Positions 20,033 through 49,284 of a stretch of 58,664 bases of DNA are shown here, piece after piece. Position 1 is the stretch's first letter. Every line of letters starts with the position of its first letter. Under the pieces are notes generated by a model that made no database searches, was not told where the DNA came from, and saw nothing but the letters and a program-made list of their open reading frames with translations. The DNA is from a virus (Duplodnaviria; Caudoviricetes): IMG/VR virus record IMGVR_UViG_3300049725_000037, positions 1-58,664 of that record; one strand, written 5' to 3'. The translations under genes were made by a program, and so were the position numbers.

Positions 20033-21295
20033 TTAGAATATCTTGATCCCGAATTTCTCTGCCTTCTCGATCTCCTCCTGCGCCTGGTCGAAGGACTCGG
20101 TCTTGACCTCGATGTAATAGCCGCGGACCTCCTTCGCGATCTTGGTCACCATGTCGATCGCGGCCTGCATCGTGTTTCCAAACCCCACGACGGCGCCGAT
20201 CTCAGGGAGCCCGACGGCTTGCGGGATGGCGTAGTAGCGGCCGGCGATCCTGGTCGGGTTGCGCAGCTTGATGAACTTCCGGTACTCCTCCGGGAAGTCG
20301 ACGGGCTGCCAGTTCTTGTCGGCCCATGCGGAATGGATCAACGCCTCGGCGCCGTACTTGGCGACCGGCTCGGGGTCAACGCAGATGCCGTGCGCTCCCT
20401 GCCAGATGATCTCAGAGATGTTCTTGTAGAACTCCTGGTAGAGCTCATTCGGAGGACTGCCGGCCCGGGCGCAGAAGTCGATCATGTACGGCACCTGATC
20501 TTTGCCGATCCGGACCTCCGTTGAGTAGAACCCGCGGTAACCGTAGCGCCGCATCACAGGCGAGATAACCCGGTCGAAGCGCGTGACCGGCTCCGGGATC
20601 TTGTCGTAGTCGGCGAAGATGCCGACATAGCCCACATCCTTGATCTCGACGCCTGTGAGGGTCTTTGTCGGGAACTGGCCGTCAATGCAGTAGCAGTCGA
20701 CGCCGACCTCGAACCGATCCGGCAGGTCATCCTCGACAACGAAGTCGATCACGTTTTTGAACGCGCCCAGGTCATGCTCCATGTCGTCCAGCACCGGCTC
20801 GACCATCTTGTAGTCGATCGCCTGGAACGTCTCCCGGATGCCGCGGAAGTAGGAGATCTTCACCCAGACGTTCTTCTTAGACTTCAGGTAGCCGCGCAGG
20901 TTGTCCATGCCATGCACAACCTCGTAGTGGCCGACCGGCAGCCCGAGCTTGGTGAACAGCTTCTTTGATCCGGGCCGGTCGAGTTCAAGCTGCTCGCCCA
21001 TGCGCGACCCCCAGACGTATTTCCCCTGTGATTCGAGCCGGGTCTGCAACTCGCCGAAATAGACGTCCGGGAAAATCCAGATGTCCGCCTTGTCGTAGAC
21101 GTCGCCAAACGGATCGTTGATCACTTCGATCCCGTCAATGCCCTTGCCGACCCATGAGATATTGGGCTTCGGGAAGCCGCTGTAGGCCGGCGCCCAATAG
21201 TAGACCTTGCCGAAGTCTCGGCCAAGGCGCGCGGCCAGATCACAGAACAAGCCGTTGTCCACCACGATAGCTGTCTTTGATTTCAGGTCGATCAT
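20033..21295 (-). CDS. ATP-grasp ligase, PurD (GAR synthetase)-like
   Basis: 420 aa; WGS..GEQLELDR..SKKLFTKLGLPV..Y and YRGFYSTEVRI...MIDFCARAGSP parallel the PurD ATP-grasp motifs. Confidence 0.75.
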   Translation of the reverse strand: MIDLKSKTAIVVDNGLFCDLAARLGRDFGKVYYWAPAYSGFPKPNISWVGKGIDGIEVINDPFGDVYDKADIWIFPDVYFGELQTRLESQGKYVWGSRMGEQLELDRPGSKKLFTKLGLPVGHYEVVHGMDNLRGYLKSKKNVWVKISYFRGIRETFQAIDYKMVEPVLDDMEHDLGAFKNVIDFVVEDDLPDRFEVGVDCYCIDGQFPTKTLTGVEIKDVGYVGIFADYDKIPEPVTRFDRVISPVMRRYGYRGFYSTEVRIGKDQVPYMIDFCARAGSPPNELYQEFYKNISEIIWQGAHGICVDPEPVAKYGAEALIHSAWADKNWQPVDFPEEYRKFIKLRNPTRIAGRYYAIPQAVGLPEIGAVVGFGNTMQAAIDMVTKIAKEVRGYYIEVKTESFDQAQEEIEKAEKFGIKIF

Positions 21296-24200
21296 TCGAG
21301 TGCGTTGTAGATGTTTCTCCCGCCCTTGCCCTTGCAGAAGATGCGCCGCAGGAACTCATCGCGGGTCTCGCTGGCGTCCTTGAGGGACTTCTCGGCGAAC
21401 TCCTTTTCAAACTGCTCGGGTGACTCAAAGCCGCCGTCCTTGACGGGGTCGAGGGTCATGGGAGTTTCCGGCACGGAAGGGGCGGCAGTGGCATCGGCTG
21501 CTGGAGTTTCAGCCAGGGAATCCGCGGGCTGCGGCGCGAGGGATAGCGCCTCTTGCGGTTCAAGTTCCTCTGGCGTTTCAACTCGCAGCGTCCGCAGCAT
21601 CGCCCGCCCGGCCTGCTCGTTCGTCAGGGTGTCCATCCCAAAAATGTTCTTCAGCCACCGCTTGACGGCCTCGACGATTCGCTGCCAGAGGGAGGGATTC
21701 TTTTCCGCGTTCTGCGCTGCCCACTCTTCAACGATCCGGTTTCGATAGTCCTCACCCGACTCGCCTTCCTGTTGCGCGTACCTTGATTTCAGGTCGGTGA
21801 TCTCGCTGGCCGGGATCTCCCGCAGCGCGAAAGCGGTAATGGCGGCACGTCCCCGCCGGCTGTCGAGAGTCGCATGCGCCCACTCGTGGTTGGCGATCTC
21901 GGCGACCGTGGCGGCATCGCCAGCGTAGGCGGCGTTGATCGTGAGCTTGCCGTCAACGTACTGGCCGCGCACGCCACGCCCGTTCTCCGTCGTGGTCGGC
22001 TCGTTGACCACTTCGATCTTGGGCGCTCGCGGGTTGGCCTTTGCGAAGGCGTCAACGGCGGTCTGCACGTCGGCGACGGGCATGGACGGCGAGTAGGTGG
22101 ATTCGAGGGAGGACAGACGCACCGGCATCGTGACGCTCAGGAACTTCTTTCCGTCGGTGATGGTGACAGATGAACTCGTATCCTTCACGATCAGTCGAAC
22201 CTTCTCCAGACCCATTGCGCGGGCCTGCGCGAGAGCGTCGGCCAAGAACTCAGGATTGACCGCTACCCTTCCGCCAGTAGCGACCCCCGCCTTGGTTTCA
22301 GTCACACCTTCCGAGTGATACCCGCCGAAATCCGGAGACTCGCTTGAGAACCCAATTCCGCCACCCTCAATAGGATGAATCTTAATGATGTGCCACCATC
22401 TCGACTTCTCAGACGTGACCAGCGAAGCCATGCGGGCCAGCCGGTACGTCTCGCCTGTGTCAACGGTGGTGTCGATTGTGACCTCGCCGGGATCGCCGAC
22501 CTTAAGTTGCCCACCTTCAACCTTCACGTAGTTGGGGACAACCTGCCGCCAGTTGGGATACTGGATTGGGTAGAACGTGCGTTTCTTTGTCTTTGGGTCT
22601 TCGCTCCACGTACCAGCGATCTTTCCGTTCTTGTCCAGCACTTGGCCTTTGCTGTTCAGCTTTTCGCCATCCCCACCGACTGCGACCGTCAGCCTCCGTC
22701 CATCTGTTGCGATGGTGAATTTCCCATCGTTCACAACGCGATTAAGAACATAGAGGGTTTCATCATTCGACTGAGCCAACCCCACCGCCTTCGTGATCTC
22801 CGCTGGCGATGGCTTCTCATTCAGCGCCGGAATCGGGCTGTTCTTTGGGACCGTGCGGGTCGTCTCCGATTCCGAGAATGGCGGCGGAACCGTCACACGG
22901 TCCCTGCCCTTGCCAAACGAATACTGCTTTCCAAAGCGGTCCCCGATGGTGTCCTGAAAGCGTTGCAGCGCCTCCTGCGTGTGCGGGATTCGGAATGTCC
23001 CGTCGCCCGGAACTTCGATTGTGACGTGCTCGCCGTGCTGGCGGGTGATGCCTTGGCGGATCGCTTCCTCGATACGCGAAGCCGTGCGCCACGAGGTTGC
23101 GCCAATCTCAATCGGGTGCCCCGGTTCAAGGCTCTCCATCGTCGAAGCCTCAGTGTCGTGAAGATCCGTGTATTTCTTCACCAACGGTTCGAGCGCGTCA
23201 AGTTTGGCCTCATCAGCGGCTTTCCGTCTCTCGTCTCCATCTTTGCCGTAGGGCAAATCATTCGTGGCGGAACGGTGCTGGTCCTCGATGTCAGCCAGCT
23301 TCTTCAAATCGACTTTGGCTTGCTCGGCATGAACCTGTGTCTCCGGCGCGTCCTTCTTCGCTGCCTCGACCGCATCGGCCAGAAATTCCTTCTGCGCCTT
23401 GATCTGCTTTCGATCTGACAGCTTGGCGATGTTGCGTTCCTTGGCCGCCGTCGGCTCGACCTTCGGCCCCTGCGGCGTCTCCGTGACCGTGGCACCGGGG
23501 GGCGGCTCGGGCGTGGCGGCTTTCGCAGCGGGTGCCTCGGCGGGCGGGGCGGGCCTGAGTCTCTCAAGAGCTTTCTCAGTGTTGACGCCTCCCCATTTCT
23601 CTTCCTGTTCAGCAGCGGCAGCAACCTTGCGCAGATTCGCAATTCGCTCTTGGGTCGCCTTCGCTAATTTCTGTGACTCCTCCGGCCAGTATTCTTTCCC
23701 GTTGGTTAAAGTCTTCCGCTCATTAGTGAACCGATTAAGGTCCGCTTCAAGTCGCTTCAACTGATCCGCAATGGGATCTGTGCTGCCGGTCTTCTGCTTG
23801 AGAATCCTACTGACGCTCTGGAAATCTTCGGCCTCCTTTTTCTTTGCCGCACGTTCGGCATTCTCAGTGTCGCGCTTCGCCTGCGCTTCCTTGAAGTCGG
23901 ATTCACGCTTTGCGATGGCTTGCGCCTCTTCGTCAGCTTTAGCCTTCCATCCTTCGTTCACCTTGGAAACGACATCATCCGTCGCCTTTGCGAGCATGGA
24001 ATCGAACGCCTTCGACTTCTGCGCGATGGTTCCTGTTTTCTCGTCAGACATCCACGCCTGCCATGTCTCATCGTCGCGGACGTGTTCGTTTAGGGTATTC
24101 TGAACGAGCTGGCGCAGTTTGTCGGGTTCTTCCTTATAGAGCGACTCATACTCATCCAGACGTTCCTTAATCGCGCCCAACGTGTGCTGAACGTCGAACT

Positions 24201-27200
24201 TGGGCGCGGGTGCCTCGGAGGGCTTCTCCGGCGCAGCGGGCGCTTCCGCCTTGGGTGCAGGGGCCGGAGTCGAACCGGCTGCGTCGGCCTTATGAGGGCC
24301 AACTGCTGCCGTAGCTCCCTGCTGTGAAAGCTCCTCAGAAGTTGCTGGATAATATCCAAATTCTTCAATCGCATCTCCCGCCCATCGAACATCACTCGCC
24401 TTCACCTTGAAGGCATGAACAGGAATGTCCTCCGATGGATTATCAGCCATTCCGTGTTGTTTAGAATACGCCCGCGAAAAAGAGACCCAATCTCCGCTGT
24501 TGAGCGTAGCCTTAGGGGCGGCACGATACACCGTAACGATGGCATCCGGCTTCCCCCTGATTCGCTTCAATGCTGCAACACTTTCCTTGTAACCAACACT
24601 TCCTGGTTCGCCTGTGTATAGATCAGGACGGTCATAAATATCACGAGGGGCAAGGTCAGTCGAAAGCAAGTCGTGCGCCGGAGGGCCTTCGCTGTTTGGC
24701 CGATGTTGGCCTTGATAACTCGGTTCCTGCGCCGGCTGAACAGCCTCCGCCTCAGCGGCCTTCCCGCCCTTCGCCGCGATCAGATACTCCGCATAATCCA
24801 TCGCGGTCTTACTGATCTGAGATTCGTCCCGATATGAGCCATTCGGTTTTTGTAGCCTTCGCAGCCCCGCCTTACTTTGCACAACAGTCGCTCCTGCCGC
24901 CACATCACTTTCAACAAGCTCCCTGCGGGTATGAGGCATCCCCTCTGCGGTGACTGACTGCGCGAGCGCCATCTGTGCCCGCTTGGCCTGCATCGGGTTC
25001 ATGCCTGCCGTGAACTCATCCTTTGCTGGCTCTATCTTTGGAGTCGGCTCCGCAGTGTCACCAATGCGCTTTGTGCCGTTGGCGATACGCTCCCTCTCCG
25101 CCTTGACGGCCTCCATCTTCGCCGCAATCCTCCCCTCCACGTCTGCCATCGCAGCCTGATTTCCCCAGATGATCTGCTGCCGCTGGGTGGGCTTAACCTC
25201 GACGCCGGCCGCCGCCGCACGGGAAAACAGTTCAGTCGCTTCAGGTGGTTCCGCCTTTGCGACCGGGGCGACCGAAGGCTTCACAGCCTCACGCGCCACC
25301 TTTTCCGCCTGTTCACCCTTTGGGGCGAGCGCGTTGTATTGCGCCTTCACCTCGTTCCACTTCGCCTGAAGCTCAGCCATGCGCTTCTCATCGCCCTTCA
25401 GCTTCGCGTTGCCCATGCTCGCCTCGATCACCTTCATCTGCGTGGCGAGCTTGCGGGCCTTCGGCGTCTTCTGCCATGGCGTCACTTCTCCCGCAGGTAC
25501 TCCGGCAGCGGCTTGTGCGGGTGCGACGCCTTGAACGACTGGCGCGCCTGGTTGAACGCCGCCGCCAGGCTTTGCTTCGGCGAGTGGCCGGCTGCCCTCA
25601 TCTCCTTCGCGTTGTGGCCGATCGATTGTCTGCTGTATCCCTTCTTGAGTGGCATGGATTGGTTCTCCGGTTGTGACTGGTTCGCCCTTCGGAAGCGTGG
25701 CAAGATCGTATCCCTCCTTTTGAAGCGTGTCTTCGTCCACCGTGCGCATCCCCCGTGGTGAACCGGGATCGGGCACCTGGTAGTAGCGGTGCCCACCCTG
25801 CTCGTACATGAACAGCGCTTCCTTCGGGACAGGCTTGCCGGCCGGCGCGGCTTCCGCTGGCTTTGCGGGCTCGACGGCTGCCGCAGGTTCCGGCTCGACT
25901 TCGATCTCCTTCAAGAGTTCCGGGTCAATCAGGTCGGACCCGGAGGGCTCGGCGTCCGGTGCGGGTTTCGGTGCCGGCCCCTTGGGTGCGGCGAGCTCTC
26001 CAGCGGCCGGCGGTTCCTCGCCGGGCGGAGTCTTCTTCGTGCTTGCGAGTCCGATGCCAGCCTTCTCCGCGGCTTCCGGCTGGCGCTTGATCCAGTCAAC
26101 AAGGTCTCCCACCGTTCGCCCATTGAATCCCTGCTCACGCGCCTTCGCCATCGCCTCCGGTCCTGGGACCCACAAACCGGTTTCAATCGCCTTGATGTCG
26201 CTTGGCAGCCGGGCAACCGACAACCCTGTGCGAAGAAGCAACTGTATAAGCGCCATGTCTCGCCCTGTCTCCATAACGCCCTGGGTGATCGGACGGTCGG
26301 GATCGTAAGTGAGCTTAGCCCCAATGTTCTGGCCGTACTGCATTCCCCCGCCTGCCGCAAAATCAACCCCCACATGCGCCGGCAACTTCGCTGCCAGCTT
26401 CACACCCGGACCGCGAAGCCATCGCATCGCCCCGGCAATCCCCTCTCGATCGGTGGCAACCGCCAAGCCCGACAGGAATATCCGCCCGGAAGGCTCCGCA
26501 GACAGAAGCCGTATCCCCCGGCTAAACGGAACCGCCATCCCCGTTCCGATCGCGGTGCCTGCGATTTCTGCAACCCCGCGCGCGGTGTTGAATTCCTTCT
26601 GTGTGATCTTGCCGGCTAGAAGCTGTGGGCGGAGTTTGTCTGTCGCTTCTTGGCGCATTGAATTGCCAATGACCCCGGCGCCGGAGACGCCTGACGCAAC
26701 TGTAGCGAGCGTATTCGCTGTGCCTGTTGTAAGTCCCGCGGCAAGGCCTATTCCCTGCGTCACCATCGCCGCCGCCCAGATAGGAACCAACCCGCCGGCA
26801 AACGGGGCAATCCTGCCGACAATGATGTTCTGGTCCGCTTTGGCGACCACCTGCTCCGGCAAATCGAGGTTCCAACTCTTGGCCTCCGTTTGAAGGTCTC
26901 CAAAAAACTTCGCGGTCTTGTCCTGCAAATAGTCGGTGGCCCCCTGGTATTGGGTGAGATTCTGCTTCGCCAGTTCCCCTGCCGGTCCGGGCAAAAGCGA
27001 GGCCGTCAACTTGGACGTGAACCCCGGCCCCGAAGCCCGGATCAGATTTCGGGCGAGCCATTCCTTTATGTTCAAGGAAGCCTCTTCCTCTCCTTGGAAT
27101 GCACGCAGACCGGCCTGCTTGGTTTCCTCCCAGACAGTAGGATCGCGGACCTGATCCCAGAGCCCGCCCTCCTTGAGCATCGGCTCCTTGTCCTTCATCG

Positions 27201-28641
27201 CCTGCCGCAGGACATCGCGCTCATCGCGGAGCGGCTTCTTCATCTTCTCAGTCGCCCCGGGATGGGAGATCAGCCCGTCGACTTCCTTCAGCCGGTTCTG
27301 GGCGAGGCTGTAGGTACTCAGCAGCTTCGCCCCGTTCACAGCGTCCTCCCCGCCGAACTGGGAGATCAGTTTTTCAATCGGCTCGCCCCCGACCGTCTTG
27401 TTCCCGGCATCCCGGAGATTTGCCAGCCGCGCCATCGCCGCATGAAAAACCGGAGCGTTGTGAATGTCCGCATGGTCCCTCGCCTGGTCGATGAAATCCT
27501 TGTTCGACACGTCATCAACCTTCGATTGCGCCAAAGCCTTTGCCCCCTCCTGCAAGGAATCCCATGCGCCGATCCCGACATTCGCCAACTGTGTTGCCTT
27601 TATGGCGGCGGCCTCGGTCGGCGTGACTAGGCCGAGATTTGGAAATCCTTCCTCGTGGCTGGCTTCTCTTTCGTCGACCGGAGGATCCACGGCAGCCCCG
27701 CGCTTCGGCAAATGCTGCATGATCGTCTTCGGGTCGATCAGACGCTGCCCGCGCGCCCGCCGGTAGTCGTTCACCTGCTTGATCCGTCCGGCAACCCAGT
27801 CATCGGGACCGGTCGGGACGGGATCAGGATAGTCGATCAACGGTTCCCCGGCCGCCTGCCTCTGCTGGTTCACGGCGCCCGTTGCCGCGGCAATCGCCTT
27901 GTCGTTGATCGTGAGCGTCTGTTCGGCAAGCCCCCCATAGCGGATCTTCTCATCCTCGAGCGCCTTCTTCACCCTGTCGTGTTCATCGACAATGCGCTTG
28001 CGACGGTCCTGCGCATCCTTGATCGCAGCCGCCGCCTTCTCTGCTTCGGATTTCTCTCCGGGCAGCCGGCCGGCGGCAGCAACGGCATCCGGGGTCGGGT
28101 CGCCGCGCTTGCGGCTGGTGAACATCGCCCCGAAAACTCCAGTCGTATCCTTCGCCGCCTCTTCATCGGAAGGAATCGCGGCCCCCACCTTCGCAAGATC
28201 ATCCAGCGACGGACGGCCGGCAGCCTTCGCCGCAAGATCCGCTTTGGCTCTCGCTGCTTCCCGTGCGGTCCCTGTCTTGCCCTTGATCAGGTCGGGAAGC
28301 AAATCGGTATTCTGCTGGTCGAACTCGTCGAGCATCGCCTTCCGCGCCTGAAGATCCGCCTCCAGCAAAGTCTTCCGGGTTTTGGATTGCTTCATCTGCC
28401 GGGGCAAAGCGTGGTTGGCGAGAAGATCACCAAGGTCGTCGACCTCGCTCCGCTGCGGCGCGAGCCGTTGCCCCAGTGATTGCCCCTGAGAAAACGCCGT
28501 CGTCTTCGCCTGCCGTTGCAGTGCCCTGCGGCGGCGCTGCTCCGCCGTGTCATCGAACGCGAATGGATCAGCCGCGAGGCTTCCGGGTGCATTCGCTACC
28601 GCCGTCGCGGAATCCGCATAAGGATCGAAGTCGTCGGGCAT
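21292..28641 (-). CDS. Giant polyvalent probable ejection protein (2449 aa): hydrophobic region, ART-like module, beta-clamp-like module, HExxH peptidase
   Basis: Gly/Ala hydrophobic helices; VTVYRA...GDWVSFSRAYSKQHG...EFGYYP; IATDGRRL...YPNWRQVVP...VNPEFLADAL...VTMPVRL; ANHEWAH. Confidence 0.85.
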   Translation of the reverse strand: MPDDFDPYADSATAVANAPGSLAADPFAFDDTAEQRRRRALQRQAKTTAFSQGQSLGQRLAPQRSEVDDLGDLLANHALPRQMKQSKTRKTLLEADLQARKAMLDEFDQQNTDLLPDLIKGKTGTAREAARAKADLAAKAAGRPSLDDLAKVGAAIPSDEEAAKDTTGVFGAMFTSRKRGDPTPDAVAAAGRLPGEKSEAEKAAAAIKDAQDRRKRIVDEHDRVKKALEDEKIRYGGLAEQTLTINDKAIAAATGAVNQQRQAAGEPLIDYPDPVPTGPDDWVAGRIKQVNDYRRARGQRLIDPKTIMQHLPKRGAAVDPPVDEREASHEEGFPNLGLVTPTEAAAIKATQLANVGIGAWDSLQEGAKALAQSKVDDVSNKDFIDQARDHADIHNAPVFHAAMARLANLRDAGNKTVGGEPIEKLISQFGGEDAVNGAKLLSTYSLAQNRLKEVDGLISHPGATEKMKKPLRDERDVLRQAMKDKEPMLKEGGLWDQVRDPTVWEETKQAGLRAFQGEEEASLNIKEWLARNLIRASGPGFTSKLTASLLPGPAGELAKQNLTQYQGATDYLQDKTAKFFGDLQTEAKSWNLDLPEQVVAKADQNIIVGRIAPFAGGLVPIWAAAMVTQGIGLAAGLTTGTANTLATVASGVSGAGVIGNSMRQEATDKLRPQLLAGKITQKEFNTARGVAEIAGTAIGTGMAVPFSRGIRLLSAEPSGRIFLSGLAVATDREGIAGAMRWLRGPGVKLAAKLPAHVGVDFAAGGGMQYGQNIGAKLTYDPDRPITQGVMETGRDMALIQLLLRTGLSVARLPSDIKAIETGLWVPGPEAMAKAREQGFNGRTVGDLVDWIKRQPEAAEKAGIGLASTKKTPPGEEPPAAGELAAPKGPAPKPAPDAEPSGSDLIDPELLKEIEVEPEPAAAVEPAKPAEAAPAGKPVPKEALFMYEQGGHRYYQVPDPGSPRGMRTVDEDTLQKEGYDLATLPKGEPVTTGEPIHATQEGIQQTIDRPQREGDEGSRPLAEAKPGGGVQPGAPVVQGVAPAQAAAGVPAGEVTPWQKTPKARKLATQMKVIEASMGNAKLKGDEKRMAELQAKWNEVKAQYNALAPKGEQAEKVAREAVKPSVAPVAKAEPPEATELFSRAAAAGVEVKPTQRQQIIWGNQAAMADVEGRIAAKMEAVKAERERIANGTKRIGDTAEPTPKIEPAKDEFTAGMNPMQAKRAQMALAQSVTAEGMPHTRRELVESDVAAGATVVQSKAGLRRLQKPNGSYRDESQISKTAMDYAEYLIAAKGGKAAEAEAVQPAQEPSYQGQHRPNSEGPPAHDLLSTDLAPRDIYDRPDLYTGEPGSVGYKESVAALKRIRGKPDAIVTVYRAAPKATLNSGDWVSFSRAYSKQHGMADNPSEDIPVHAFKVKASDVRWAGDAIEEFGYYPATSEELSQQGATAAVGPHKADAAGSTPAPAPKAEAPAAPEKPSEAPAPKFDVQHTLGAIKERLDEYESLYKEEPDKLRQLVQNTLNEHVRDDETWQAWMSDEKTGTIAQKSKAFDSMLAKATDDVVSKVNEGWKAKADEEAQAIAKRESDFKEAQAKRDTENAERAAKKKEAEDFQSVSRILKQKTGSTDPIADQLKRLEADLNRFTNERKTLTNGKEYWPEESQKLAKATQERIANLRKVAAAAEQEEKWGGVNTEKALERLRPAPPAEAPAAKAATPEPPPGATVTETPQGPKVEPTAAKERNIAKLSDRKQIKAQKEFLADAVEAAKKDAPETQVHAEQAKVDLKKLADIEDQHRSATNDLPYGKDGDERRKAADEAKLDALEPLVKKYTDLHDTEASTMESLEPGHPIEIGATSWRTASRIEEAIRQGITRQHGEHVTIEVPGDGTFRIPHTQEALQRFQDTIGDRFGKQYSFGKGRDRVTVPPPFSESETTRTVPKNSPIPALNEKPSPAEITKAVGLAQSNDETLYVLNRVVNDGKFTIATDGRRLTVAVGGDGEKLNSKGQVLDKNGKIAGTWSEDPKTKKRTFYPIQYPNWRQVVPNYVKVEGGQLKVGDPGEVTIDTTVDTGETYRLARMASLVTSEKSRWWHIIKIHPIEGGGIGFSSESPDFGGYHSEGVTETKAGVATGGRVAVNPEFLADALAQARAMGLEKVRLIVKDTSSSVTITDGKKFLSVTMPVRLSSLESTYSPSMPVADVQTAVDAFAKANPRAPKIEVVNEPTTTENGRGVRGQYVDGKLTINAAYAGDAATVAEIANHEWAHATLDSRRGRAAITAFALREIPASEITDLKSRYAQQEGESGEDYRNRIVEEWAAQNAEKNPSLWQRIVEAVKRWLKNIFGMDTLTNEQAGRAMLRTLRVETPEELEPQEALSLAPQPADSLAETPAADATAAPSVPETPMTLDPVKDGGFESPEQFEKEFAEKSLKDASETRDEFLRRIFCKGKGGRNIYNALE
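24252..24323 (-). tRNA. tRNA-like cloverleaf with CAT anticodon, nested on the sense strand of the 2449-aa CDS
   Basis: AGCAGGG-A-GCT ACGGC AGC-AGT-TGGCC CTCATAA GGCCG-ACGCA-GCCGG TTCGACT CCGGC-CCCTGCA-C-CCA; good acceptor, anticodon and T arms, reduced D arm. Confidence 0.6.
25482..25655 (-). CDS. Overprinted 57-aa basic protein (MPLKKG... family) in an alternative frame of the giant gene
   Basis: MPLKKGYSRQSIGHNAKEMRAAGHSPKQSLAAAFNQAR...; start context CCAATCC-ATG like other genes here. Confidence 0.65.
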   Translation of the reverse strand: MPLKKGYSRQSIGHNAKEMRAAGHSPKQSLAAAFNQARQSFKASHPHKPLPEYLREK

Positions 28642-44779: not shown

Positions 44780-45088
44780 ATGAGCACAAACGACCCCGCG
44801 ATCACCCGCGACAACCAGCCTCCAGCACCGTATGGCGTGATGGATATTACTGCGGATGAACTCACCCGCCTTCGCGCCAACCTTGCCGAGATTTCCCGCC
44901 ACGCCGGAATCGAGGTCTTTGAGGCGAATGAGGAGGTGTTGAAGCTGACCACCGAACTTGCCGCAGCCAAAGCTGCCCACCTAGAATCCGAGAAACAACT
45001 GCGCTGTTGGCAAGATAAGTACGCCTCCGTCACAACCGAGCGGGACGCGCTGCTTGCCGAGCGGGACGCGCTGCTTGCCGAGCGGTGA
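44780..45088 (+). CDS. Coiled-coil hypothetical protein ending in ERDALLA x2
   Basis: ATG at 44780; 21-bp tandem repeat near the 3' end. Confidence 0.6.
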   Translation: MSTNDPAITRDNQPPAPYGVMDITADELTRLRANLAEISRHAGIEVFEANEEVLKLTTELAAAKAAHLESEKQLRCWQDKYASVTTERDALLAERDALLAER

Positions 45089-45133
45089 CGCATGAGAGAA
45101 AATAGCCTTTTTCACTTTCTCACCCTAAATCCA

Positions 45134-45469
45134 ATGAAATCAAAAGTTCAAATTCACTACCGCCAGGGCGATGTGCTGATTGAGCGCGTTCCCTCTCTGC
45201 CCGCAAATCGAACGAAGCTCGCGCGTGAAAACGGCCGCGTGATCCTCGCTCATGGCGAGGTCACCGGCCACGCCCATGCGATCTCCGCTGCCAACGCCGA
45301 TCTCTATTCGGCGGTCGATTCCGGAGATGTGACCTTCCTCGAAATCCGGGACGCCATGGTCGAACTCGAGCACGATGAGCATGCCACGGTGACGCTCCCG
45401 CCAGGCAATTACGTCGTGCGACGTCAGCGCGAATACACCCCGGAGGAAATTCGCCGTGTCGCAGACTAA
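45134..45469 (+). CDS. Conserved His-motif protein (RQGDV...GEVTGHAH...HDEH...RRQREY), copy 1
   Basis: Motifs recalled as the usual partner of DUF6745 genes. Confidence 0.85.
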
Positions 45470-46502
45470 TTACAGTCCGGAAGTCCAGGCATTGCTCGAT
45501 CGCCACGCGACGGCTTGCGAGCTGAAGATGCCGGTTGATCGCGAGCGCATCGCCGATCGCTTGACGGCCTGTCTGGCGGGCGTTTCGCGAGAAAAGTTGC
45601 AGGTCCGCTTCCTCGACCGAGCCGATGAAATCAGCTCGGTCGTCATAAAGGCCAGGGCTGCCTGGGATGCCAGGGCTGCCAGGGATGCCAGGGATGCCTG
45701 GGCTGCCAGGGCTGCCTGGGATGCCAGGGCTGCCAGGGATGCCAGGGCTGCCTGGGATGCCAGGGCTGCCAGGGCTGCCAGGGCTGCCAGGGCTGCCTGG
45801 GATGCCAGGGCTGCCTGGGCTGCCTGGGATGCCTGGGATGCCTGGGATGCCAGGGCTGCCTGGGATGCCTGGGATGCCTGGACTGCCAGTTGGGATTGCA
45901 GTTGGTTGCCCGTAATTTCGATCGGTGCGCTAGAGCGCGCCGACAGAAAGCTGCACAGCATTTGGCTGCCTCTGCTGGAGGCATTCGAGGCTGGCGCCTG
46001 GCTATTCTGGATTACGGCGGACGAACTGGTGGTCGCCGAGCGTCCCTCTGCGGTACGCACCGACGATCGCCGGCGTCTACATCATGCGTCCGAGCCGGCG
46101 TTTTCCTGGCTCAGCGATATCCGCGAGTTCTATATTCACGGCGTCCATGTTCCGAGCTACATCATCGAGCAGCCGGAAACGATCACCATTACCGAGATCG
46201 AATCGGAACGAAATGCCGAGGTGCGACGGGTGATGATCGAGCGTTACGGCCGGGCGCGGTTCTTGACCGAGTCCGGGGCCGCTCAGATCCATGCCGATGA
46301 TTTCGGGATTCTCTACAGGAAGGAGGTCACTGGAGATGAGCCAATCGTGATGGTGAAGGTGATAAACGCCACGCCGGACCCGGCTGGCACGTTCAAAGAC
46401 TACTTCCTGCGCGTTCCTCCGACGATGCGGACGGCCCGCGAGGCGGTCGCCTGGACGTTCGAGAAGGAAGCCGACGCTTATGCGCCGGCAGTCCAAACAT
46501 GA
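45456..46502 (+). CDS. DUF6745-like protein with A(R/W)(A/D) repeats, copy 1
   Basis: [13 protein letters not shown]...[41 protein letters not shown]. Confidence 0.8.
45651..45884 (+). repeat. 9-bp coding minisatellite GCC(A/T)GGG(C/A)T, 25 units plus 1 degenerate, copy 1
   Basis: Read directly; encodes ARA/ARD/AWA/AWD. Confidence 0.95.
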
Positions 46503-46554
46503 TCAGGGAAACCGATCTTTTCGGCGCCGGCCGGCACGGCGCATCCGGCAAGCC

Positions 46555-46686
46555 ATGAAACCTACTTTCCGCTGCTCGGAACTCGGTCAAGTCCTCTGGT
46601 GCCCCGGCTCGAAGGCGCTTGGGGCCAAGGGTCACAACCGAGCGGGACGCGCTGCTTGCCGAGCGGTGACGCATGAGAGAAAATAG
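46555..46686 (+). pseudogene. Truncated 5' copy of the Cas4-like nuclease gene at the duplication junction
   Basis: MKPTFRCSELGQVLWCPGSKALGAK identical to the start of 48136..49284, then diverges at 46631. Confidence 0.85.
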
Positions 46687-46714
46687 CCTTTTTCACTTTC
46701 TCACCCTAAATCCA

Positions 46715-47050
46715 ATGAAATCAAAAGTTCAAATTCACTACCGCCAGGGCGATGTGCTGATTGAGCGCGTTCCCTCTCTGCCCGCAAATCGAACGAAGCT
46801 CGCGCGTGAAAACGGCCGCGTGATCCTCGCTCATGGCGAGGTCACCGGCCACGCCCATGCGATCTCCGCTGCCAACGCCGATCTCTATTCGGCGGTCGAT
46901 TCCGGAGATGTGACCTTCCTCGAAATCCGGGACGCCATGGTCGAACTCGAGCACGATGAGCATGCCACGGTGACGCTCCCGCCAGGCAATTACGTCGTGC
47001 GACGTCAGCGCGAATACACCCCGGAGGAAATTCGCCGTGTCGCAGACTAA
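46715..47050 (+). CDS. Conserved His-motif protein, copy 2
   Basis: Translation identical to 45134..45469. Confidence 0.8.
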
Positions 47051-48083
47051 TTACAGTCCGGAAGTCCAGGCATTGCTCGATCGCCACGCGACGGCTTGCG
47101 AGCTGAAGATGCCGGTTGATCGCGAGCGCATCGCCGATCGCTTGACGGCCTGTCTGGCGGGCGTTTCGCGAGAAAAGTTGCAGGTCCGCTTCCTCGACCG
47201 AGCCGATGAAATCAGCTCGGTCGTCATAAAGGCCAGGGCTGCCTGGGATGCCAGGGCTGCCAGGGATGCCAGGGATGCCTGGGCTGCCAGGGCTGCCTGG
47301 GATGCCAGGGCTGCCAGGGATGCCAGGGCTGCCTGGGATGCCAGGGCTGCCAGGGCTGCCAGGGCTGCCAGGGCTGCCTGGGATGCCAGGGCTGCCTGGG
47401 CTGCCTGGGATGCCTGGGATGCCTGGGATGCCAGGGCTGCCTGGGATGCCTGGGATGCCTGGACTGCCAGTTGGGATTGCAGTTGGTTGCCCGTAATTTC
47501 GATCGGTGCGCTAGAGCGCGCCGACAGAAAGCTGCACAGCATTTGGCTGCCTCTGCTGGAGGCATTCGAGGCTGGCGCCTGGCTATTCTGGATTACGGCG
47601 GACGAACTGGTGGTCGCCGAGCGTCCCTCTGCGGTACGCACCGACGATCGCCGGCGTCTACATCATGCGTCCGAGCCGGCGTTTTCCTGGCTCAGCGATA
47701 TCCGCGAGTTCTATATTCACGGCGTCCATGTTCCGAGCTACATCATCGAGCAGCCGGAAACGATCACCATTACCGAGATCGAATCGGAACGAAATGCCGA
47801 GGTGCGACGGGTGATGATCGAGCGTTACGGCCGGGCGCGGTTCTTGACCGAGTCCGGGGCCGCTCAGATCCATGCCGATGATTTCGGGATTCTCTACAGG
47901 AAGGAGGTCACTGGAGATGAGCCAATCGTGATGGTGAAGGTGATAAACGCCACGCCGGACCCGGCTGGCACGTTCAAAGACTACTTCCTGCGCGTTCCTC
48001 CGACGATGCGGACGGCCCGCGAGGCGGTCGCCTGGACGTTCGAGAAGGAAGCCGACGCTTATGCGCCGGCAGTCCAAACATGA
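47037..48083 (+). CDS. DUF6745-like protein, copy 2
   Basis: Translation identical to 45456..46502. Confidence 0.8.
47232..47465 (+). repeat. 9-bp coding minisatellite, copy 2
   Basis: Same unit order as 45651-45884. Confidence 0.95.
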
Positions 48084-48135
48084 TCAGGGAAACCGATCTT
48101 TTCGGCGCCGGCCGGCACGGCGCATCCGGCAAGCC

Positions 48136-49284
48136 ATGAAACCTACTTTCCGCTGCTCGGAACTCGGTCAAGTCCTCTGGTGCCCCGGCTCGAAGGCGCT
48201 TGGGGCCAAGGCGAAGCCGCGCGCCAGGGATTCCACTCAAGCTACTGCCGGTCAGTGGTGTCACGCCCGTGCGGCACAACGCCTGCGCGACGAAGAAAGC
48301 GCGACAGGCCCCGCGATCGTCTTGCCGGAACTCAAGGCCGACCGCTTCAAGGAGTGGATCGTGTCCTACTACCTCGACACCGTCCGCATGTACGTCGAGG
48401 CGGACATGGCGATCGAGTACGAGGCGGCGCTCGAATGGGAGTTCCCTCGCTTCATCCTGACCGGCCACATGGACGTTCTCGCGCTCAACGCCGACGCGAC
48501 GGAGTTTGTCGGCTTGGATCTGAAATCCGGGACGGACCCCGTCACCCCTGCGGAGGACAACGCCCAGGGACTTGGGTATCAGGCGCTCGTTGCGCTCAAT
48601 TACCCGACCGTGCAGCGCAGCACGTTCGCCCTCGTGCAACCGACCAACAACCCGGATGACGGCCTGGAGCGCGTGACCGTGGCACGATCCGAGACCCGCG
48701 GCGCACTCGATGCACAGGTCACATACCTTGAGCGCGAACTGAACCACGTTCTCGACGCCGCCGGCGAACTGAACACCGGCTGGCGCCAGTGCCATTACTG
48801 CCCGGCCGCCCTCATCTGCCCAGCCTTCGAAGCCGACGCCGATCTTATTATGAGAATGATCCTCACCCCTGAACAGCTCGCCGCGATCCCGGACGAGCCT
48901 GACATCGAAAAGCTATTCGTCTTCGAGGCTGCCCGGAAGCAGTTCGAGGAACCGCTCAAACTGGCCCACGAAACGCTGAAGGCGCGCGTGGCCGAGATGG
49001 GCGGCGCCGAGCTATCCGACGGGACCAAGCTCCTGGTCATCGACCGGCCCGGCGCGCGGACCATCACGGACAACGCAGCGGCGACGGCCGCGCTCAACGA
49101 CCTGCCGGAAACCCTCTGGCACACCTGCTACAAATTCCGGCCGGGCGAGATCGAGATTGCCCTGGCGGAGTTCCTCAGCCTGCCGAAGACGTCGAAGAAA
49201 GGCCCGAGCGGGGCGAGCGCCTACAAGGACCGGCTGGGACACATAACCGTCTCGGCGGTCAACAAGGTGCTCAAGATCGCGTGA
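48136..49284 (+). CDS. PD-(D/E)xK Cas4-like exonuclease (DUF2800-like)
   Basis: WCPGS, GHMD...DLKSG, QGLGY, QCHYCPAALICP. Confidence 0.8.
   Translation: MKPTFRCSELGQVLWCPGSKALGAKAKPRARDSTQATAGQWCHARAAQRLRDEESATGPAIVLPELKADRFKEWIVSYYLDTVRMYVEADMAIEYEAALEWEFPRFILTGHMDVLALNADATEFVGLDLKSGTDPVTPAEDNAQGLGYQALVALNYPTVQRSTFALVQPTNNPDDGLERVTVARSETRGALDAQVTYLERELNHVLDAAGELNTGWRQCHYCPAALICPAFEADADLIMRMILTPEQLAAIPDEPDIEKLFVFEAARKQFEEPLKLAHETLKARVAEMGGAELSDGTKLLVIDRPGARTITDNAAATAALNDLPETLWHTCYKFRPGEIEIALAEFLSLPKTSKKGPSGASAYKDRLGHITVSAVNKVLKIA

What the first reader, a model, noticed from the sequence alone, without database searches (positions are those of the whole stretch)
24252..24323. Initiator-like tRNA cloverleaf (CAU, encoded CCA) hidden in-frame in the giant gene
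Seen: the sense strand has a 6-bp acceptor stem with a 1:72 mismatch, a CTCATAA anticodon loop on a 5-bp stem, a perfect GCCGG-TTCGACT-CCGGC T arm and a terminal CCA. The D arm is reduced, and the ORF reads through it as QQGATAAVGPHKADAAGSTPAPAP. It sits at the edge of the ART-like module. Established: a 1:72 mismatch marks bacterial initiator tRNA, and several toxins cut tRNA-fMet. Inference: it could be an RNase P/Z processing signal in the mRNA, a decoy for anticodon nucleases, or a scar of module capture at a tRNA gene.
Basis: partly seen in the sequence, partly recalled or inferred. Interest (0 to 1): 0.8.

Follow-up and report, generated by a model that had tools for sequence, protein, structure and literature searches.

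The report
tRNA gene nested inside phage gene
A compact methionine tRNA gene lies in frame inside a giant phage structural gene, so the same 72 bases probably serve both as a protein linker and as a tRNA, which is a rare double use of DNA.

Summary
ARAGORN calls tRNA-Met(CAU) at exactly 24252-24323 on the sense strand of a 2449-codon ORF in a 58.7-kb peat phage.

General tRNA models rate it poorly: ARAGORN is barely above threshold and Rfam gives 19 bits. That is a property of its class, not noise. Patterns taken from it retrieved dozens of phage and MAG sequences with the same 72-nt layout: A at position 8, a 3-4 bp D stem, a 3-5 nt D loop ending in GG, and all other arms canonical.

- All four helices covary across the class.
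- Some members are the only CAU tRNA in the fetched part of phage arrays of 18-26 tRNAs.
- A model built without the window scores it 78.5 bits (E 6e-18), within the range of independent members.
- Its acceptor stem, A72, C73 and CCA match chromosomal initiator-type tRNAs of Opitutaceae MAGs.
- It sits exactly at a junction of two protein modules that are permuted in the nearest homologue.
- At least four other unrelated phage genes carry class members in the same reading frame.

Best reading: an intact nested tRNA gene that doubles as linker codons. RNA processing is inferred, not shown. This scan has noted nested tRNAs in other phages before. The one published precedent found is selC inside selB.

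The parts
24252..24323 (-). 72-nt tRNA-Met(CAU)-type gene with a miniature D arm, nested in frame. It corresponds to the third base of codon 1440 (residue Q1440) plus residues Q1441-P1464 of the giant ORF.
   Evidence: ARAGORN call. Class model R2, built without it, scores it 78.5 bits, E 5.8e-18; the next best hit in the window is 12.2 bits. Fold of -36 kcal/mol, z = -3.67.
24317..24323 (-). Acceptor stem, 5' strand (AGCAGGG). A1 faces A72 as a mismatch.
   Evidence: Position 1:72 is unpaired in 12 of 13 class members.
24305..24315 (-). Miniature D arm: GCTA-CGG-CAGC, with three Watson-Crick pairs, one A/C pair and a loop that keeps GG. It is preceded by A at position 8.
   Evidence: D-stem pairs 10:18, 11:17 and 12:16 covary across the class. 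The same A12/C16 with loop CGG occurs in L081, L082 and L086.
24284..24302 (-). Anticodon arm: a 6-bp stem TTGGCC/GGCCGA and the loop CTCATAA. The anticodon CAT lies at 24292-24294 and is read in frame as His1451.
24263..24279 (-). T arm: GCCGG-TTCGACT-CCGGC.
   Evidence: Together with the 3' acceptor strand, it matches 35 viral contigs exactly (23 specified bases of the 24-position pattern); 31 of these lie in ARAGORN tRNA calls.
24252..24262 (-). Acceptor stem 3' strand CCCTGCA, discriminator C73 and encoded CCA.
   Evidence: These 11 nt are identical to canonical initiator-type tRNAs L091, L093 and L096 from genomes of the family of an Opitutaceae MAG.
21292..28641 (-). Giant ORF of 2449 aa (P0001), between the terminase-like and portal genes. 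It is continuous through the tRNA.
   Evidence: Contigs from three other studies span the tRNA with 0 differences (records 3, 13, 17).
24337..24744 (-). Protein module upstream of the tRNA (aa 1300-1435). It ends 4-5 codons before the tRNA.
   Evidence: phrog_2579, E 7e-25. 51% identity to P0003 residues 1135-1276. No Pfam or PDB match.
24181..24336 (-). Pro/Ala-rich linker (aa 1436-1487) that contains the tRNA. It is absent from the homologues P0003-P0008.
22108..24204 (-). Protein block downstream of the tRNA (aa 1480-2178). It begins 16 codons after the tRNA.
   Evidence: 28% identity, E 2e-55, to P0003 residues 439-1133. In P0003 this block lies immediately before the homologue of the upstream module, so the order is permuted.

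Best explanation
The 72 bases are an intact gene of a phage-borne class of methionine tRNAs (anticodon CAU) with a miniature D arm and an initiator-type acceptor end. The gene is nested in frame at a module junction of the giant virion-module gene.

The same DNA is read two ways:
1. Ribosomes translate it as a 24-residue flexible Pro/Ala/Gly linker.
2. Transcripts, or parts of them, that fold into the cloverleaf are cut by RNase P at the 5' end and trimmed back to the encoded CCA. This releases a tRNA that adds to, or stands in for, the host's initiator tRNA late in infection, at the cost of that mRNA copy.

Shown: class membership, structural integrity, nesting in a real ORF, recurrence of nesting in other phage genes, and the host-like acceptor end.

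Inferred: transcription as part of the giant mRNA, processing, charging, and use in initiation.
For: (1) It belongs to a real RNA class.
- A pattern taken from the window's acceptor and T-arm motifs found 23 viral, 22 genome and (with the CCCA tail added) 9 metagenome loci. Most are 72-75 nt with the same layout.
- In 13 distinct 72-mers, 92% of pair cells are paired. 11 of 22 pairs change on both sides. There are 47 compensatory cells against 16.6 in shuffles (0 of 500 shuffles reach this). The covariation score is 0.47, against at most 0.076 for slid partners. The mini D stem covaries in 3 of 4 pairs.

(2) Members behave as tRNA genes. In the fetched stretches they are the only CAU tRNA of arrays of 24, 18 and 26 tRNAs (L040, L060, L065). 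Others lie next to canonical tRNAs (L056, L037, L058).

(3) The window copy is intact. R2, built from 12 members without it, gives 78.5 bits. Independent 72-nt members score 72-85 bits, training members 63-88, and the apparently decaying copy L086 scores 62.9. Among columns invariant or at least 90% conserved in the other members, the departures are column 69 (the discriminator, invariant A in the 12; C in the window) and the pair 26:36, which is C:G rather than G:C but still paired.

(4) That C73, together with CCCTGCA and CCA, equals the 3' end of canonical initiator-type tRNAs (A11:T24 D arm) of three genomes in the family of an Opitutaceae MAG. Elongator-type tRNA-Met genes there end in ACCA.

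(5) The ORF is real on both sides. Homology to P0003 ends within about 5 residues upstream of the tRNA and resumes 16 residues downstream.

(6) Nesting recurs in the same frame in other genes, supported by more than an open frame:
- a conserved roughly 280-aa protein (L088, L081, L082, L086);
- a ClpP-type head protease (L039, L050);
- a 335-aa protein with its ATG 43 codons upstream (L041, L048);
- a PALP enzyme gene whose only start codons lie before or inside the tRNA in 4 loci.

(7) In the roughly 280-aa family the tRNA is 79-86% identical, without gaps, between distant members whose flanks are 59-72% identical. Pair 22:40 switches from C:G to G:C.

(8) Nested copies alone still covary: 93% of cells paired, 34 compensatory cells against 11.2 in shuffles, 0 of 500.
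Against: - There is no RNA evidence. The only RNA-library contig lies at 23802-24069 and cannot show ends.
- There is no divergence to test selection in this lineage. All 9 cluster members and all laid contigs are identical across the element, and no relative of the phage was found.
- General tRNA models fail: Rfam gives 19.2 bits against a gathering score of 29 for RF00005 (47 for the matched family, tRNA-Sec), and ARAGORN loses the call at 104% of its threshold.
- U8, a normal D stem and loop, and the 15:48 pair partners are missing, so a canonical L-shape is doubtful.
- The canonical initiator marks A11:U24 and the three G:C pairs at 29-31:39-41 are absent.
- Covariation between copies in different genes may predate nesting.
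- The class was fished with 24 positions taken from the window, so those positions count for nothing in the scores.
- No minus-strand promoter-like site lies near the element. That is expected under co-transcription, but it means no independent transcription signal was found.
- Decay of nested copies does occur: L086.
Confidence: 0.55

Rival explanations
1. Recent relic. A once-working nested or neighbouring tRNA gene of this class is now only linker codons, and its stems survive because too little time has passed for decay.
For: - Decay inside a kept reading frame is seen elsewhere. The tRNA of L086 is 86% identical to that of L081 while the flanks are 92-97% identical. Its anticodon loop is deviant and it scores 62.9 bits.
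- Mukai 2021 reports remnant selC inside selB.
- The window copy has a rare discriminator for the class and lacks the GGG/CCC run common in other members.
- No RNA data exist.
Against: - All 21 expected pairs are standard except the class-typical 1:72 and 12:16 positions.
- The loops are canonical, and the score is in the range of independent intact members.
- The C73 'defect' matches candidate-host initiator tRNAs.
Confidence: 0.27
2. A structured RNA element that does not act in decoding. It could be an RNase P/RNase E cleavage site that splits or down-tunes the giant mRNA, or a bait for host nucleases that attack initiator tRNA.
For: - The acceptor/T-arm minihelix and CCA are perfect. That RNase P substrates need little more is recalled knowledge, not tested here.
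- Mukai 2021 proposes that processing of a nested tRNA represses the host ORF.
- Phage tRNAs as counters to tRNA-targeting defences are documented (PMC10264068, passages read; PMC11555353, abstract seen).
- The body of the tRNA departs from the canonical shape.
Against: - Class members stand as the only CAU tRNA in the fetched part of three of the four large tRNA arrays seen (L040, L060, L065; L058 holds a second CAU tRNA), which fits a decoding role.
- The anticodon loop and the host-like acceptor end are kept. A mere cleavage signal would not need them.
Confidence: 0.12
3. Chance cloverleaf produced by GC-rich Ala/Pro/Gly linker codons.
For: - The ARAGORN and Rfam scores are marginal.
- ARAGORN makes about 1 false call per 100 shuffled genomes of this composition.
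- GCC/GGN/CCG codons favour GC-rich palindromes.
Against: - The 24-position pattern from the T arm and acceptor strand (23 specified bases) occurs exactly in 35 viral contigs; 31 of them lie in tRNA calls, 29 of which carry anticodon CAT.
- The class model built without the window gives E 5.8e-18.
- Similarity to the other loci stops within at most 16 nt of the tRNA borders, and at the borders themselves in most.
- 0 of 300 synonymous shuffles keep the call on the sense strand.
Confidence: 0.02

Closest known systems
selC (tRNA-Sec) nested inside the selB ORF of Alphaproteobacteria (Mukai 2021, PMC8124441; abstract and passages read)
   Same: A whole tRNA, including its CCA, lies on the sense strand inside a protein ORF and is translated in frame. 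Remnant copies exist. Processing is proposed to compete with translation. Both cases are bioinformatic only.
   Different: That case is a bacterial chromosomal or megaplasmid gene. The tRNA forms a C-terminal extension, and the tRNA and the protein are functional partners. Here the element is in a phage, in a mid-gene linker at a module junction. It is a Met/initiator-type tRNA with a miniature D arm, with no evident link to the protein's function, and the same tRNA class is nested in several unrelated genes.
Bacterial initiator tRNA (tRNA-fMet). The canonical copies in genomes of the family of an Opitutaceae MAG are L091, L093 and L096.
   Same: Anticodon CAU with loop CTCATAA, acceptor pairs 2-7:66-71, A72, discriminator C73, encoded CCA, and a T loop of TTCGAnT type.
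   Different: A8 instead of T8. The D arm is 11 nt against about 17. 11:24 is C:G, not A:T. The anticodon stem has G:C, G:C, C:G, C:G rather than a G run. Position 1:72 is A/A here and T:A in those hosts. The window copy is 72 nt; those are 75-77 nt.
Phage-encoded tRNAs proposed or shown to offset tRNA-targeting host defences (van den Berg et al. 2023, PMC10264068, passages read; Azam et al. 2024, PMC11555353, abstract seen)
   Same: A phage copy of a host tRNA species whose body differs from the host's.
   Different: Those are free-standing canonical tRNA genes. PMC10264068 states that the phages it examined generally avoid encoding tRNA-fMet where the anticodon is the nuclease target. No defence link was tested here.
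D-arm-reduced mitochondrial tRNAs of animals (recalled; no call)
   Same: Shortened D arm with the other arms kept.
   Different: Those belong to organelle translation systems with adapted factors. Here the D loop keeps GG and the T loop is fully canonical, in a bacterial phage setting.
Earlier notes of this scan on tRNAs nested in phage genes (e1-5965788, e1-5872641, e1-6038251, e1-6042513, e1-785009). These are AI notes, unchecked by me.
   Same: A tRNA or tRNA-like element in frame in the linker codons of a phage, or Patescibacteria, gene.
   Different: Other tRNA species and other genes. No sequence like this one is indexed in the scan. One of those notes is marked as having partly fallen on later checking.

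Membership tests
tRNA as defined by Rfam (RF00005, clan CL00001) | Score at or above the gathering threshold (29 bits for RF00005) | tested here: not met
   The best clan hit is tRNA-Sec at 19.2 bits, E 0.55. Nothing reaches gathering score in the window. The 13 other mini-D copies tested also fail: 0 of 11 loci, plus L004 and L014. Canonical-D relatives score 46-69 bits.
tRNA (cloverleaf definition, ARAGORN) | Four-arm cloverleaf with a 7-nt anticodon loop and a T loop of TTCRANY type, above the program's threshold | tested here: met
   Called tRNA-Met(cat), but marginally: kept at 103% of the threshold and lost at 104%.
Mini-D-arm phage tRNA-Met(CAU) class (defined here) | 72-nt layout 7/1/4-3-4/2/6-7-6/4/5-7-5/7/4 with A8, a D loop ending in GG, anticodon CAU, and a score under a class covariance model built without the candidate | tested here: met
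   It aligns with 12 members without gaps. R2 gives 78.5 bits, E 5.8e-18, against 72-85 bits for independent 72-nt members. 24 of the 72 positions were fixed by the search pattern.
Mini-D-arm phage tRNA-Met(CAU) class | The helices are supported by covariation | tested here: met
   The acceptor stem and part of the T stem cannot vary, because the search pattern fixed them.
Bacterial initiator tRNA | Anticodon CAU | tested here: met
Bacterial initiator tRNA | No Watson-Crick pair at 1:72 | tested here: met
   A1/A72. Unpaired in 12 of 13 class members. The textbook case is C1/A72 (recalled).
Bacterial initiator tRNA | Three consecutive G:C pairs at 29-31:39-41 | tested here: not met
   The window has G:C at 29:41 and C:G at 30:40 and 31:39. 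Many other class members do have the G run.
Bacterial initiator tRNA | Purine 11 : pyrimidine 24 (A11:U24) | tested here: not met
   11:24 is C:G in the mini D stem. The canonical Opitutaceae-family copies have A:T.
Bacterial initiator tRNA | Acceptor end like the host's initiator and unlike its elongator tRNA-Met | tested here: inconclusive
   The 3' end CCCTGCACCCA is identical to L091, L093 and L096, while the elongator-type L095 and L097 end in ACCA. The host of this phage is not known.
Bacterial initiator tRNA | Charged by MetRS, formylated, and used in the P site | not testable with these tools
   Needs biochemistry.
Nested tRNA gene (in the sense of Mukai 2021) | The whole tRNA lies on the sense strand inside one uninterrupted ORF | tested here: met
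   Independent assemblies agree.
Nested tRNA gene | The ORF is genuine coding sequence on both sides of the tRNA | tested here: met
   phrog_2579 and a 51%-identity match to P0003 end at aa 1435-1445. A 28%-identity match (E 2e-55) starts at aa 1480. An open frame alone would not suffice: antisense frames through class members are about as often open.
Nested tRNA gene | Both products are made from the locus | not testable with these tools
   No informative RNA or protein data.

The most novel reading that the evidence does not exclude
The nesting is a sensor. While ribosomes traverse the giant late mRNA they keep the 72 bases unfolded, and the bases are read as linker codons. When initiation collapses, for example because a host defence destroys initiator tRNA, untranslated transcripts fold the cloverleaf. 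RNase P then releases a nuclease-resistant, miniature-D-arm initiator tRNA with the host's acceptor identity, and translation restarts. A companion idea is that the same stop-free, linker-encoding tRNA cassette serves as an in-frame joint at which phages shuffle protein modules. That would fit its position here, exactly at a permuted module junction.
Probability: 0.12. Interest if true: 0.9.

Novelty: new variant of a known kind. Interest (0 to 1): 0.75.

Why it matters
If it is real, three things follow.

1. One stretch of phage DNA is under two unrelated codes at once, protein and tRNA, in the middle of a gene. The only printed precedent I found is a bioinformatic prediction for selC inside selB.

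2. A whole class of phage methionine tRNAs with a miniature D arm escapes covariance-model annotation: 0 of 14 copies reach Rfam's threshold. ARAGORN catches them only marginally. Phage tRNA censuses would miss them, and gene callers that mask tRNAs would split real genes. The JGI/IMG protein on record for this cluster (P0009, seen on a contig of the window's length) starts just after the tRNA.

3. An initiator-type tRNA that keeps the host's acceptor identity on a remodelled body makes a testable question of how little tRNA body initiation needs, and whether phages use such tRNAs against initiator-tRNA-targeting defences.

Tried and rejected
**Relatives of this phage**
- Megablast of the giant gene against GenBank phages and PLSDB plasmids found nothing.
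- tblastn against phages found only the 122-aa module: 172 records, each covering 5% of the query.
- The search for related loci found nothing with the giant protein or the terminase in viral contigs, or with aa 1290-1700 in metagenome contigs.
- The 9 members of the protein cluster are the same phage. Differences number at most 7 residues, none in the linker.
- Conservation in this lineage therefore could not be tested.

**Reads**
- 20 of the 23 listed runs (peat, permafrost and lake-water metagenomes, plus one bioreactor RNA run at 0.12 of the words) hold at least part of the stretch.
- The three DNA runs laid are identical across the element. Low word shares reflected patchy coverage, not divergence.
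- The one RNA-library run gave a contig at 23802-24069 only, plus a poor match at 24650-24701. It says nothing about transcription or RNA ends.

**Other checks that led nowhere**
- A search for the same anticodon arm plus T stem in viral contigs found 0.
- The promoter scan found no minus-strand site near the tRNA.
- PDB and Pfam searches of the upstream module found nothing.

**Readings considered and dropped**
- A phage attachment-site fragment of a host tRNA. The element is a full-length cloverleaf, not a 3' piece, and lies in the middle of a structural gene. I did not search the window specifically for an integrase; none appeared among 20 ORFs scanned.
- A random decay product of a canonical 75-nt tRNA, which was my reading. 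The mini D arm proved to be a covarying class feature.

**Open frames as evidence of nesting: rejected on their own.** Across 49 mini-D contexts, frames open for at least 40 codons on both sides were found 20 times on the sense strand and 14 times on the antisense strand. I therefore count L051/L057, L054, L083/L084 and L038 only as possible cases.

**Literature**
- Searches for phage initiator tRNA phrases and for short-D-arm phrases combined with 'bacteriophage' found nothing relevant.
- The further searches added nothing.
- Supplementary files of papers were not consulted.
Full report
**Setting.** The window is a complete 58,664-base virus record with about 61% G+C. On the minus strand it carries terminase-like, portal, major-head and other virion genes. 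On the plus strand it carries RecT, exonuclease and helicase genes. Between the terminase-like gene and the portal module lies one uninterrupted ORF of 2449 codons, 21292..28641 on the minus strand (P0001). The finding lies on its sense strand.

**The observation.**
- ARAGORN calls a 72-nt tRNA-Met(cat) at exactly c[24252,24323]. It has a 6-bp acceptor stem with A1 opposite A72, a small D hairpin, the loop CTCATAA, a perfect T arm, discriminator C and CCA.
- It is the only tRNA call in the genome.
- The 72-mer alone folds into this cloverleaf at -36 kcal/mol (z = -3.67; 0 of 200 shuffles fold as well).
- It is translated as QQGATAAVGPHKADAAGSTPAPAP, with the anticodon read as His1451.

**General detectors are lukewarm.**
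- The ARAGORN call survives a threshold of 103% but not 104%. All 5 tRNAs of phage D29 survive to 110%.
- Rfam gives only 19.2 bits, to tRNA-Sec, and nothing at gathering score.
- Shuffles put ARAGORN's false-call rate at 4 per 400 genomes of this composition at the default threshold, and 0 per 400 at 103%.
- 0 of 300 synonymous shuffles of the gene kept a sense-strand call.
- On this alone the element could have been one of the many marginal calls a large scan must meet.

**What changed the picture.**
- A blastn of the element against 50,697 GenBank phage records hit 37 records, mostly inside annotated tRNA-Met genes, at 78-82% identity over about 50 nt (best E 1e-3).
- The 24-position pattern covering its T arm and 3' acceptor strand (23 specified bases) then matched 35 viral contigs exactly. 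31 of the matches lie in ARAGORN tRNA calls: 29 with anticodon CAT and 2 labelled Phe(aaa). All of these start with NGCAGGG; 4 matches were not called.
- Members with a normal D arm score 46-69 bits in Rfam. Two loci, L004 and L014, had a 72-nt form with a short D arm like the window's and did not reach Rfam's threshold.
- At that point I read the window copy as a decayed tRNA. That was wrong.
- A pattern requiring GCAGGGAG (A at position 8) plus the T-loop and acceptor motifs found 23 viral contigs, 22 genome contigs (all MAGs, of many phyla) and, with the CCCA tail added, 9 metagenome contigs.
- Most share one layout: acceptor 7, one A, a 4-position D stem with a 3-nt loop NGG (or 3 pairs with a 5-nt loop), 2 nt, a 6-bp anticodon stem, a 7-nt loop with CAT, 4 nt, a canonical T arm, acceptor 7, then a 4-nt tail. 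The window fits this layout without a gap.

**The class is a real structured RNA.**
- In 13 distinct 72-mers, 92% of pair cells form standard pairs. 11 of 22 pairs change on both sides. 47 cells are compensatory, against 16.6 in shuffles (0 of 500). The covariation score is 0.47, against at most 0.076 when partners are slid.
- The mini D stem itself covaries in 3 of 4 pairs.
- The acceptor stem and part of the T stem could not vary, because my pattern fixed them.
- Position 1:72 is unpaired in 12 of 13.
- None of the 14 mini-D copies tested reaches Rfam's tRNA threshold.
- ARAGORN of 23 at the default threshold but only 4 of 23 at 110%. The window's weak scores are therefore a class property.
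- Members behave as tRNA genes. In the fetched stretches they are the only CAU tRNA of arrays of 24, 18 and 26 tRNAs (L040, L060, L065). Others abut canonical tRNAs (L056, L037, L058).
- In 41 genomes of the family of G001 (record title: Opitutaceae bacterium), only G001 has a class-level hit. The class is therefore sporadic, as expected for phage or prophage cargo, and not a core bacterial tRNA.

**The window copy is an intact member.**
- A covariance model built from 12 members without the window scores it 78.5 bits (E 5.8e-18). The next best hit in the genome is 12.2 bits.
- Training members score 63-88 bits. Independent 72-nt members score 72-85. A copy that looks to be decaying (L086) scores 62.9. 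Normal-D relatives score 44-62.
- 24 of the 72 positions are shared by construction. The rest are not.
- The D-stem A12/C16 mismatch with loop CGG recurs in L081, L082 and L086.
- Its clearest departure from a conserved column is the discriminator, C instead of A; the 26:36 pair is also flipped to C:G but stays paired.
- That departure has an explanation. Canonical 75-77-nt initiator-type tRNAs (with the A11:T24 D arm) in G001 and two other genomes of its family end in CCCTGCACCCA, identical to the window's last 11 nt. The elongator-type tRNA-Met genes found there end in ACCA.
- Class members on Opitutaceae MAG contigs also carry C73.
- This hints that the host is a verrucomicrobial relative, in keeping with the peat, permafrost and lake-water runs that hold the phage. 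It is a hint only.

**The nesting is real.**
- Homology to P0003 covers P0001 residues 1304-1445 (51% identity, E 1e-45) and residues 1480-2178 (28% identity, E 2e-55). The tRNA occupies residues 1441-1464.
- In P0003 the two blocks are adjacent in the opposite order. The tRNA therefore sits exactly at a rearranged module junction, inside a Pro/Ala-rich linker that none of six homologues shares.
- Similarity between the window and all other loci stops within at most 16 nt of the tRNA's borders, and at the borders themselves in most.
- Contigs from three other studies span the element with no difference, so it is not an assembly artefact.
- The 962-aa JGI/IMG protein of this cluster (P0009), on record for a contig of the window's length, starts at residue 1488, just after the tRNA. 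The source annotation thus appears to split the giant gene.

**Nesting recurs, always in the frame that reads QG...H.P...GS.PAPA.** An open frame alone proves little here: frames open for at least 40 codons on both sides occur 20 times on the sense strand and 14 times on the antisense strand among 49 contexts. I therefore count only cases with further support.
- A conserved protein of about 280 aa has the tRNA about 35 codons after its ATG, with conserved peptides on both sides, in four diverged versions (L088/L061, L081, L082, L086).
- A ClpP-type head maturation protease has its frame running on through the tRNA (L039, L050).
- A 335-aa protein has its ATG 43 codons upstream and no other start codon within 60 codons (L041, L043, L047, L048).
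- A PALP-family enzyme gene begins at an ATGA or TTGA overlap with the upstream methylase gene. In four loci it has no ATG, GTG or TTG between the tRNA and the conserved GGTKARF motif. This context holds a 75-nt normal-D tRNA in 12 loci and the 72-nt form in 2, and the frame is kept in both.
- In these five contexts, counting the window, 2 or 3 of the tRNA's frames are stop-free, yet all use the same one. With n = 5 this is suggestive only.
- Within the roughly 280-aa family the tRNA is 79-86% identical and gap-free between distant members whose flanks are 59-72% identical with many gaps. Pair 22:40 switches from C:G to G:C.
- In the close pair L081/L086 the tRNA (86%) has diverged more than the flanks (92-97%), and L086 has a deviant anticodon loop. 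Both maintained and decaying nested copies therefore exist.
- Nested copies alone still covary, although differences between copies in different genes may predate nesting.

**Mechanism.**
- *Shown:* an intact member of a covarying tRNA class, with a host-initiator-like acceptor end, lies in frame in a genuine ORF at a module junction.
- *Inferred:* it is transcribed within the giant late mRNA, since no minus-strand promoter-like site is nearby (weak evidence). Transcripts that fold are cut by RNase P and trimmed to the encoded CCA. The product is charged by MetRS and used, most likely in initiation. Transcripts that are translated yield the full protein with a flexible 24-residue linker. Processing and translation of one RNA copy exclude each other, as Mukai proposed for selC in selB.
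- *Why a phage would carry such a tRNA is open.* Supplying or replacing initiator tRNA under host tRNA-targeting defences is plausible in the light of PMC10264068 and PMC11555353, but it is untested.
- *Against a decoding role:* no U8, a tiny D arm, no A11:U24, and no G run in the anticodon stem of this copy.

**Rivals.**
- A recent relic that now only codes (about 0.27).
- A processing, regulatory or decoy RNA that does not decode (about 0.12).
- Chance (about 0.02).

**Novelty.**
- Searches for nested or embedded tRNA phrases found only Mukai 2021.
- Searches for phage initiator tRNA phrases and for short-D-arm phrases combined with 'bacteriophage' found nothing relevant. The library lacks most subscription journals, and I saw no supplements.
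- Earlier AI notes of this scan describe other tRNAs nested in phage genes. One is marked as having partly fallen. None concerns this sequence. They led me to Mukai's paper, which I read in passages. I did not test their claims.

**Limits.**
- No RNA or protein data.
- No diverged relative of this phage.
- The class was retrieved with motifs from the window, so its breadth beyond the GCAGGG acceptor is unknown.
- The host is unknown.
- The identity of the tRNA (initiator, elongator Met, or a CAU tRNA read otherwise) is not settled.

Noticed in passing
window 45057-48218: An exact tandem duplication with 1581-nt spacing (copies of at least 300 nt at 45057 and 46638, 100% identical). It duplicates a 348-codon ORF (45456-46502 and 47037-48083). 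Each copy contains a run of 9-nt periodic repeats (about 45543-45986 and from 47124). It may be real, or an assembly artefact.
   Followed up: partly
window 21292-28641 (variants P0002, P0014, P0015): Other assemblies of the same phage carry a frameshifted version of the giant gene (1631 aa, diverging after residue 1611, on a 68,693-nt contig) and a version lacking residues 2081-2083 with a few substitutions.
   Followed up: partly
L025:3853-3927 and 11 similar loci (L002, L006, L012, L015, L018, L020, L028-L031, L036): A canonical 75-nt tRNA-Met (58 bits in Rfam for L025 and L012) is wedged between a DNA methylase gene, whose TGA stop abuts tRNA position 1, and a PALP-family enzyme gene. The enzyme gene's reading frame starts at an overlapping ATGA or TTGA and runs through the tRNA. 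In L015, L030, L031 and L036 no other start codon is available.
   Followed up: partly
L086:2926-2997: A nested copy that seems to be losing tRNA features (loop TGCATCC, mismatches, 62.9 bits) while the host ORF and its frame are kept.
   Followed up: partly
P0003 versus P0001 (window aa 1304-1445 and 1480-2178): The two modules flanking the tRNA are adjacent but in the opposite order in the 2819-aa homologue P0003, so the junction in the window is a rearrangement point.
   Followed up: partly
L091, L093, L096 (genomes G001, G027, G008): Canonical initiator-type tRNAs of this family (the record title of G001's locus reads Opitutaceae bacterium) have discriminator C73 and a T1:A72 pair. The elongator-type tRNA-Met genes have A73.
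   Followed up: no
L040:3829-7770, L058:72-4255, L060:7-2597, L065:668-5558: Dense arrays of 18-26 tRNA genes on viral or MAG contigs. Their tRNA-Met(CAU) is of the short-D-arm type. L058 has two adjacent CAU tRNAs.
   Followed up: no
window 21292-24180 (P0009): The JGI/IMG protein on record for a contig of the window's length (P0009, 962 aa) begins at residue 1488, just downstream of the tRNA. The source annotation therefore appears to split the giant gene, and the 1487 residues upstream are not part of that call.
   Followed up: partly
L032:2010-2080 and L045:13556-13623: Rfam gathering-level hits to DUF3800-IX RNA (38.8 bits) and int-alpA RNA (46.3 bits) in two of the fetched viral contigs.
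   Followed up: no
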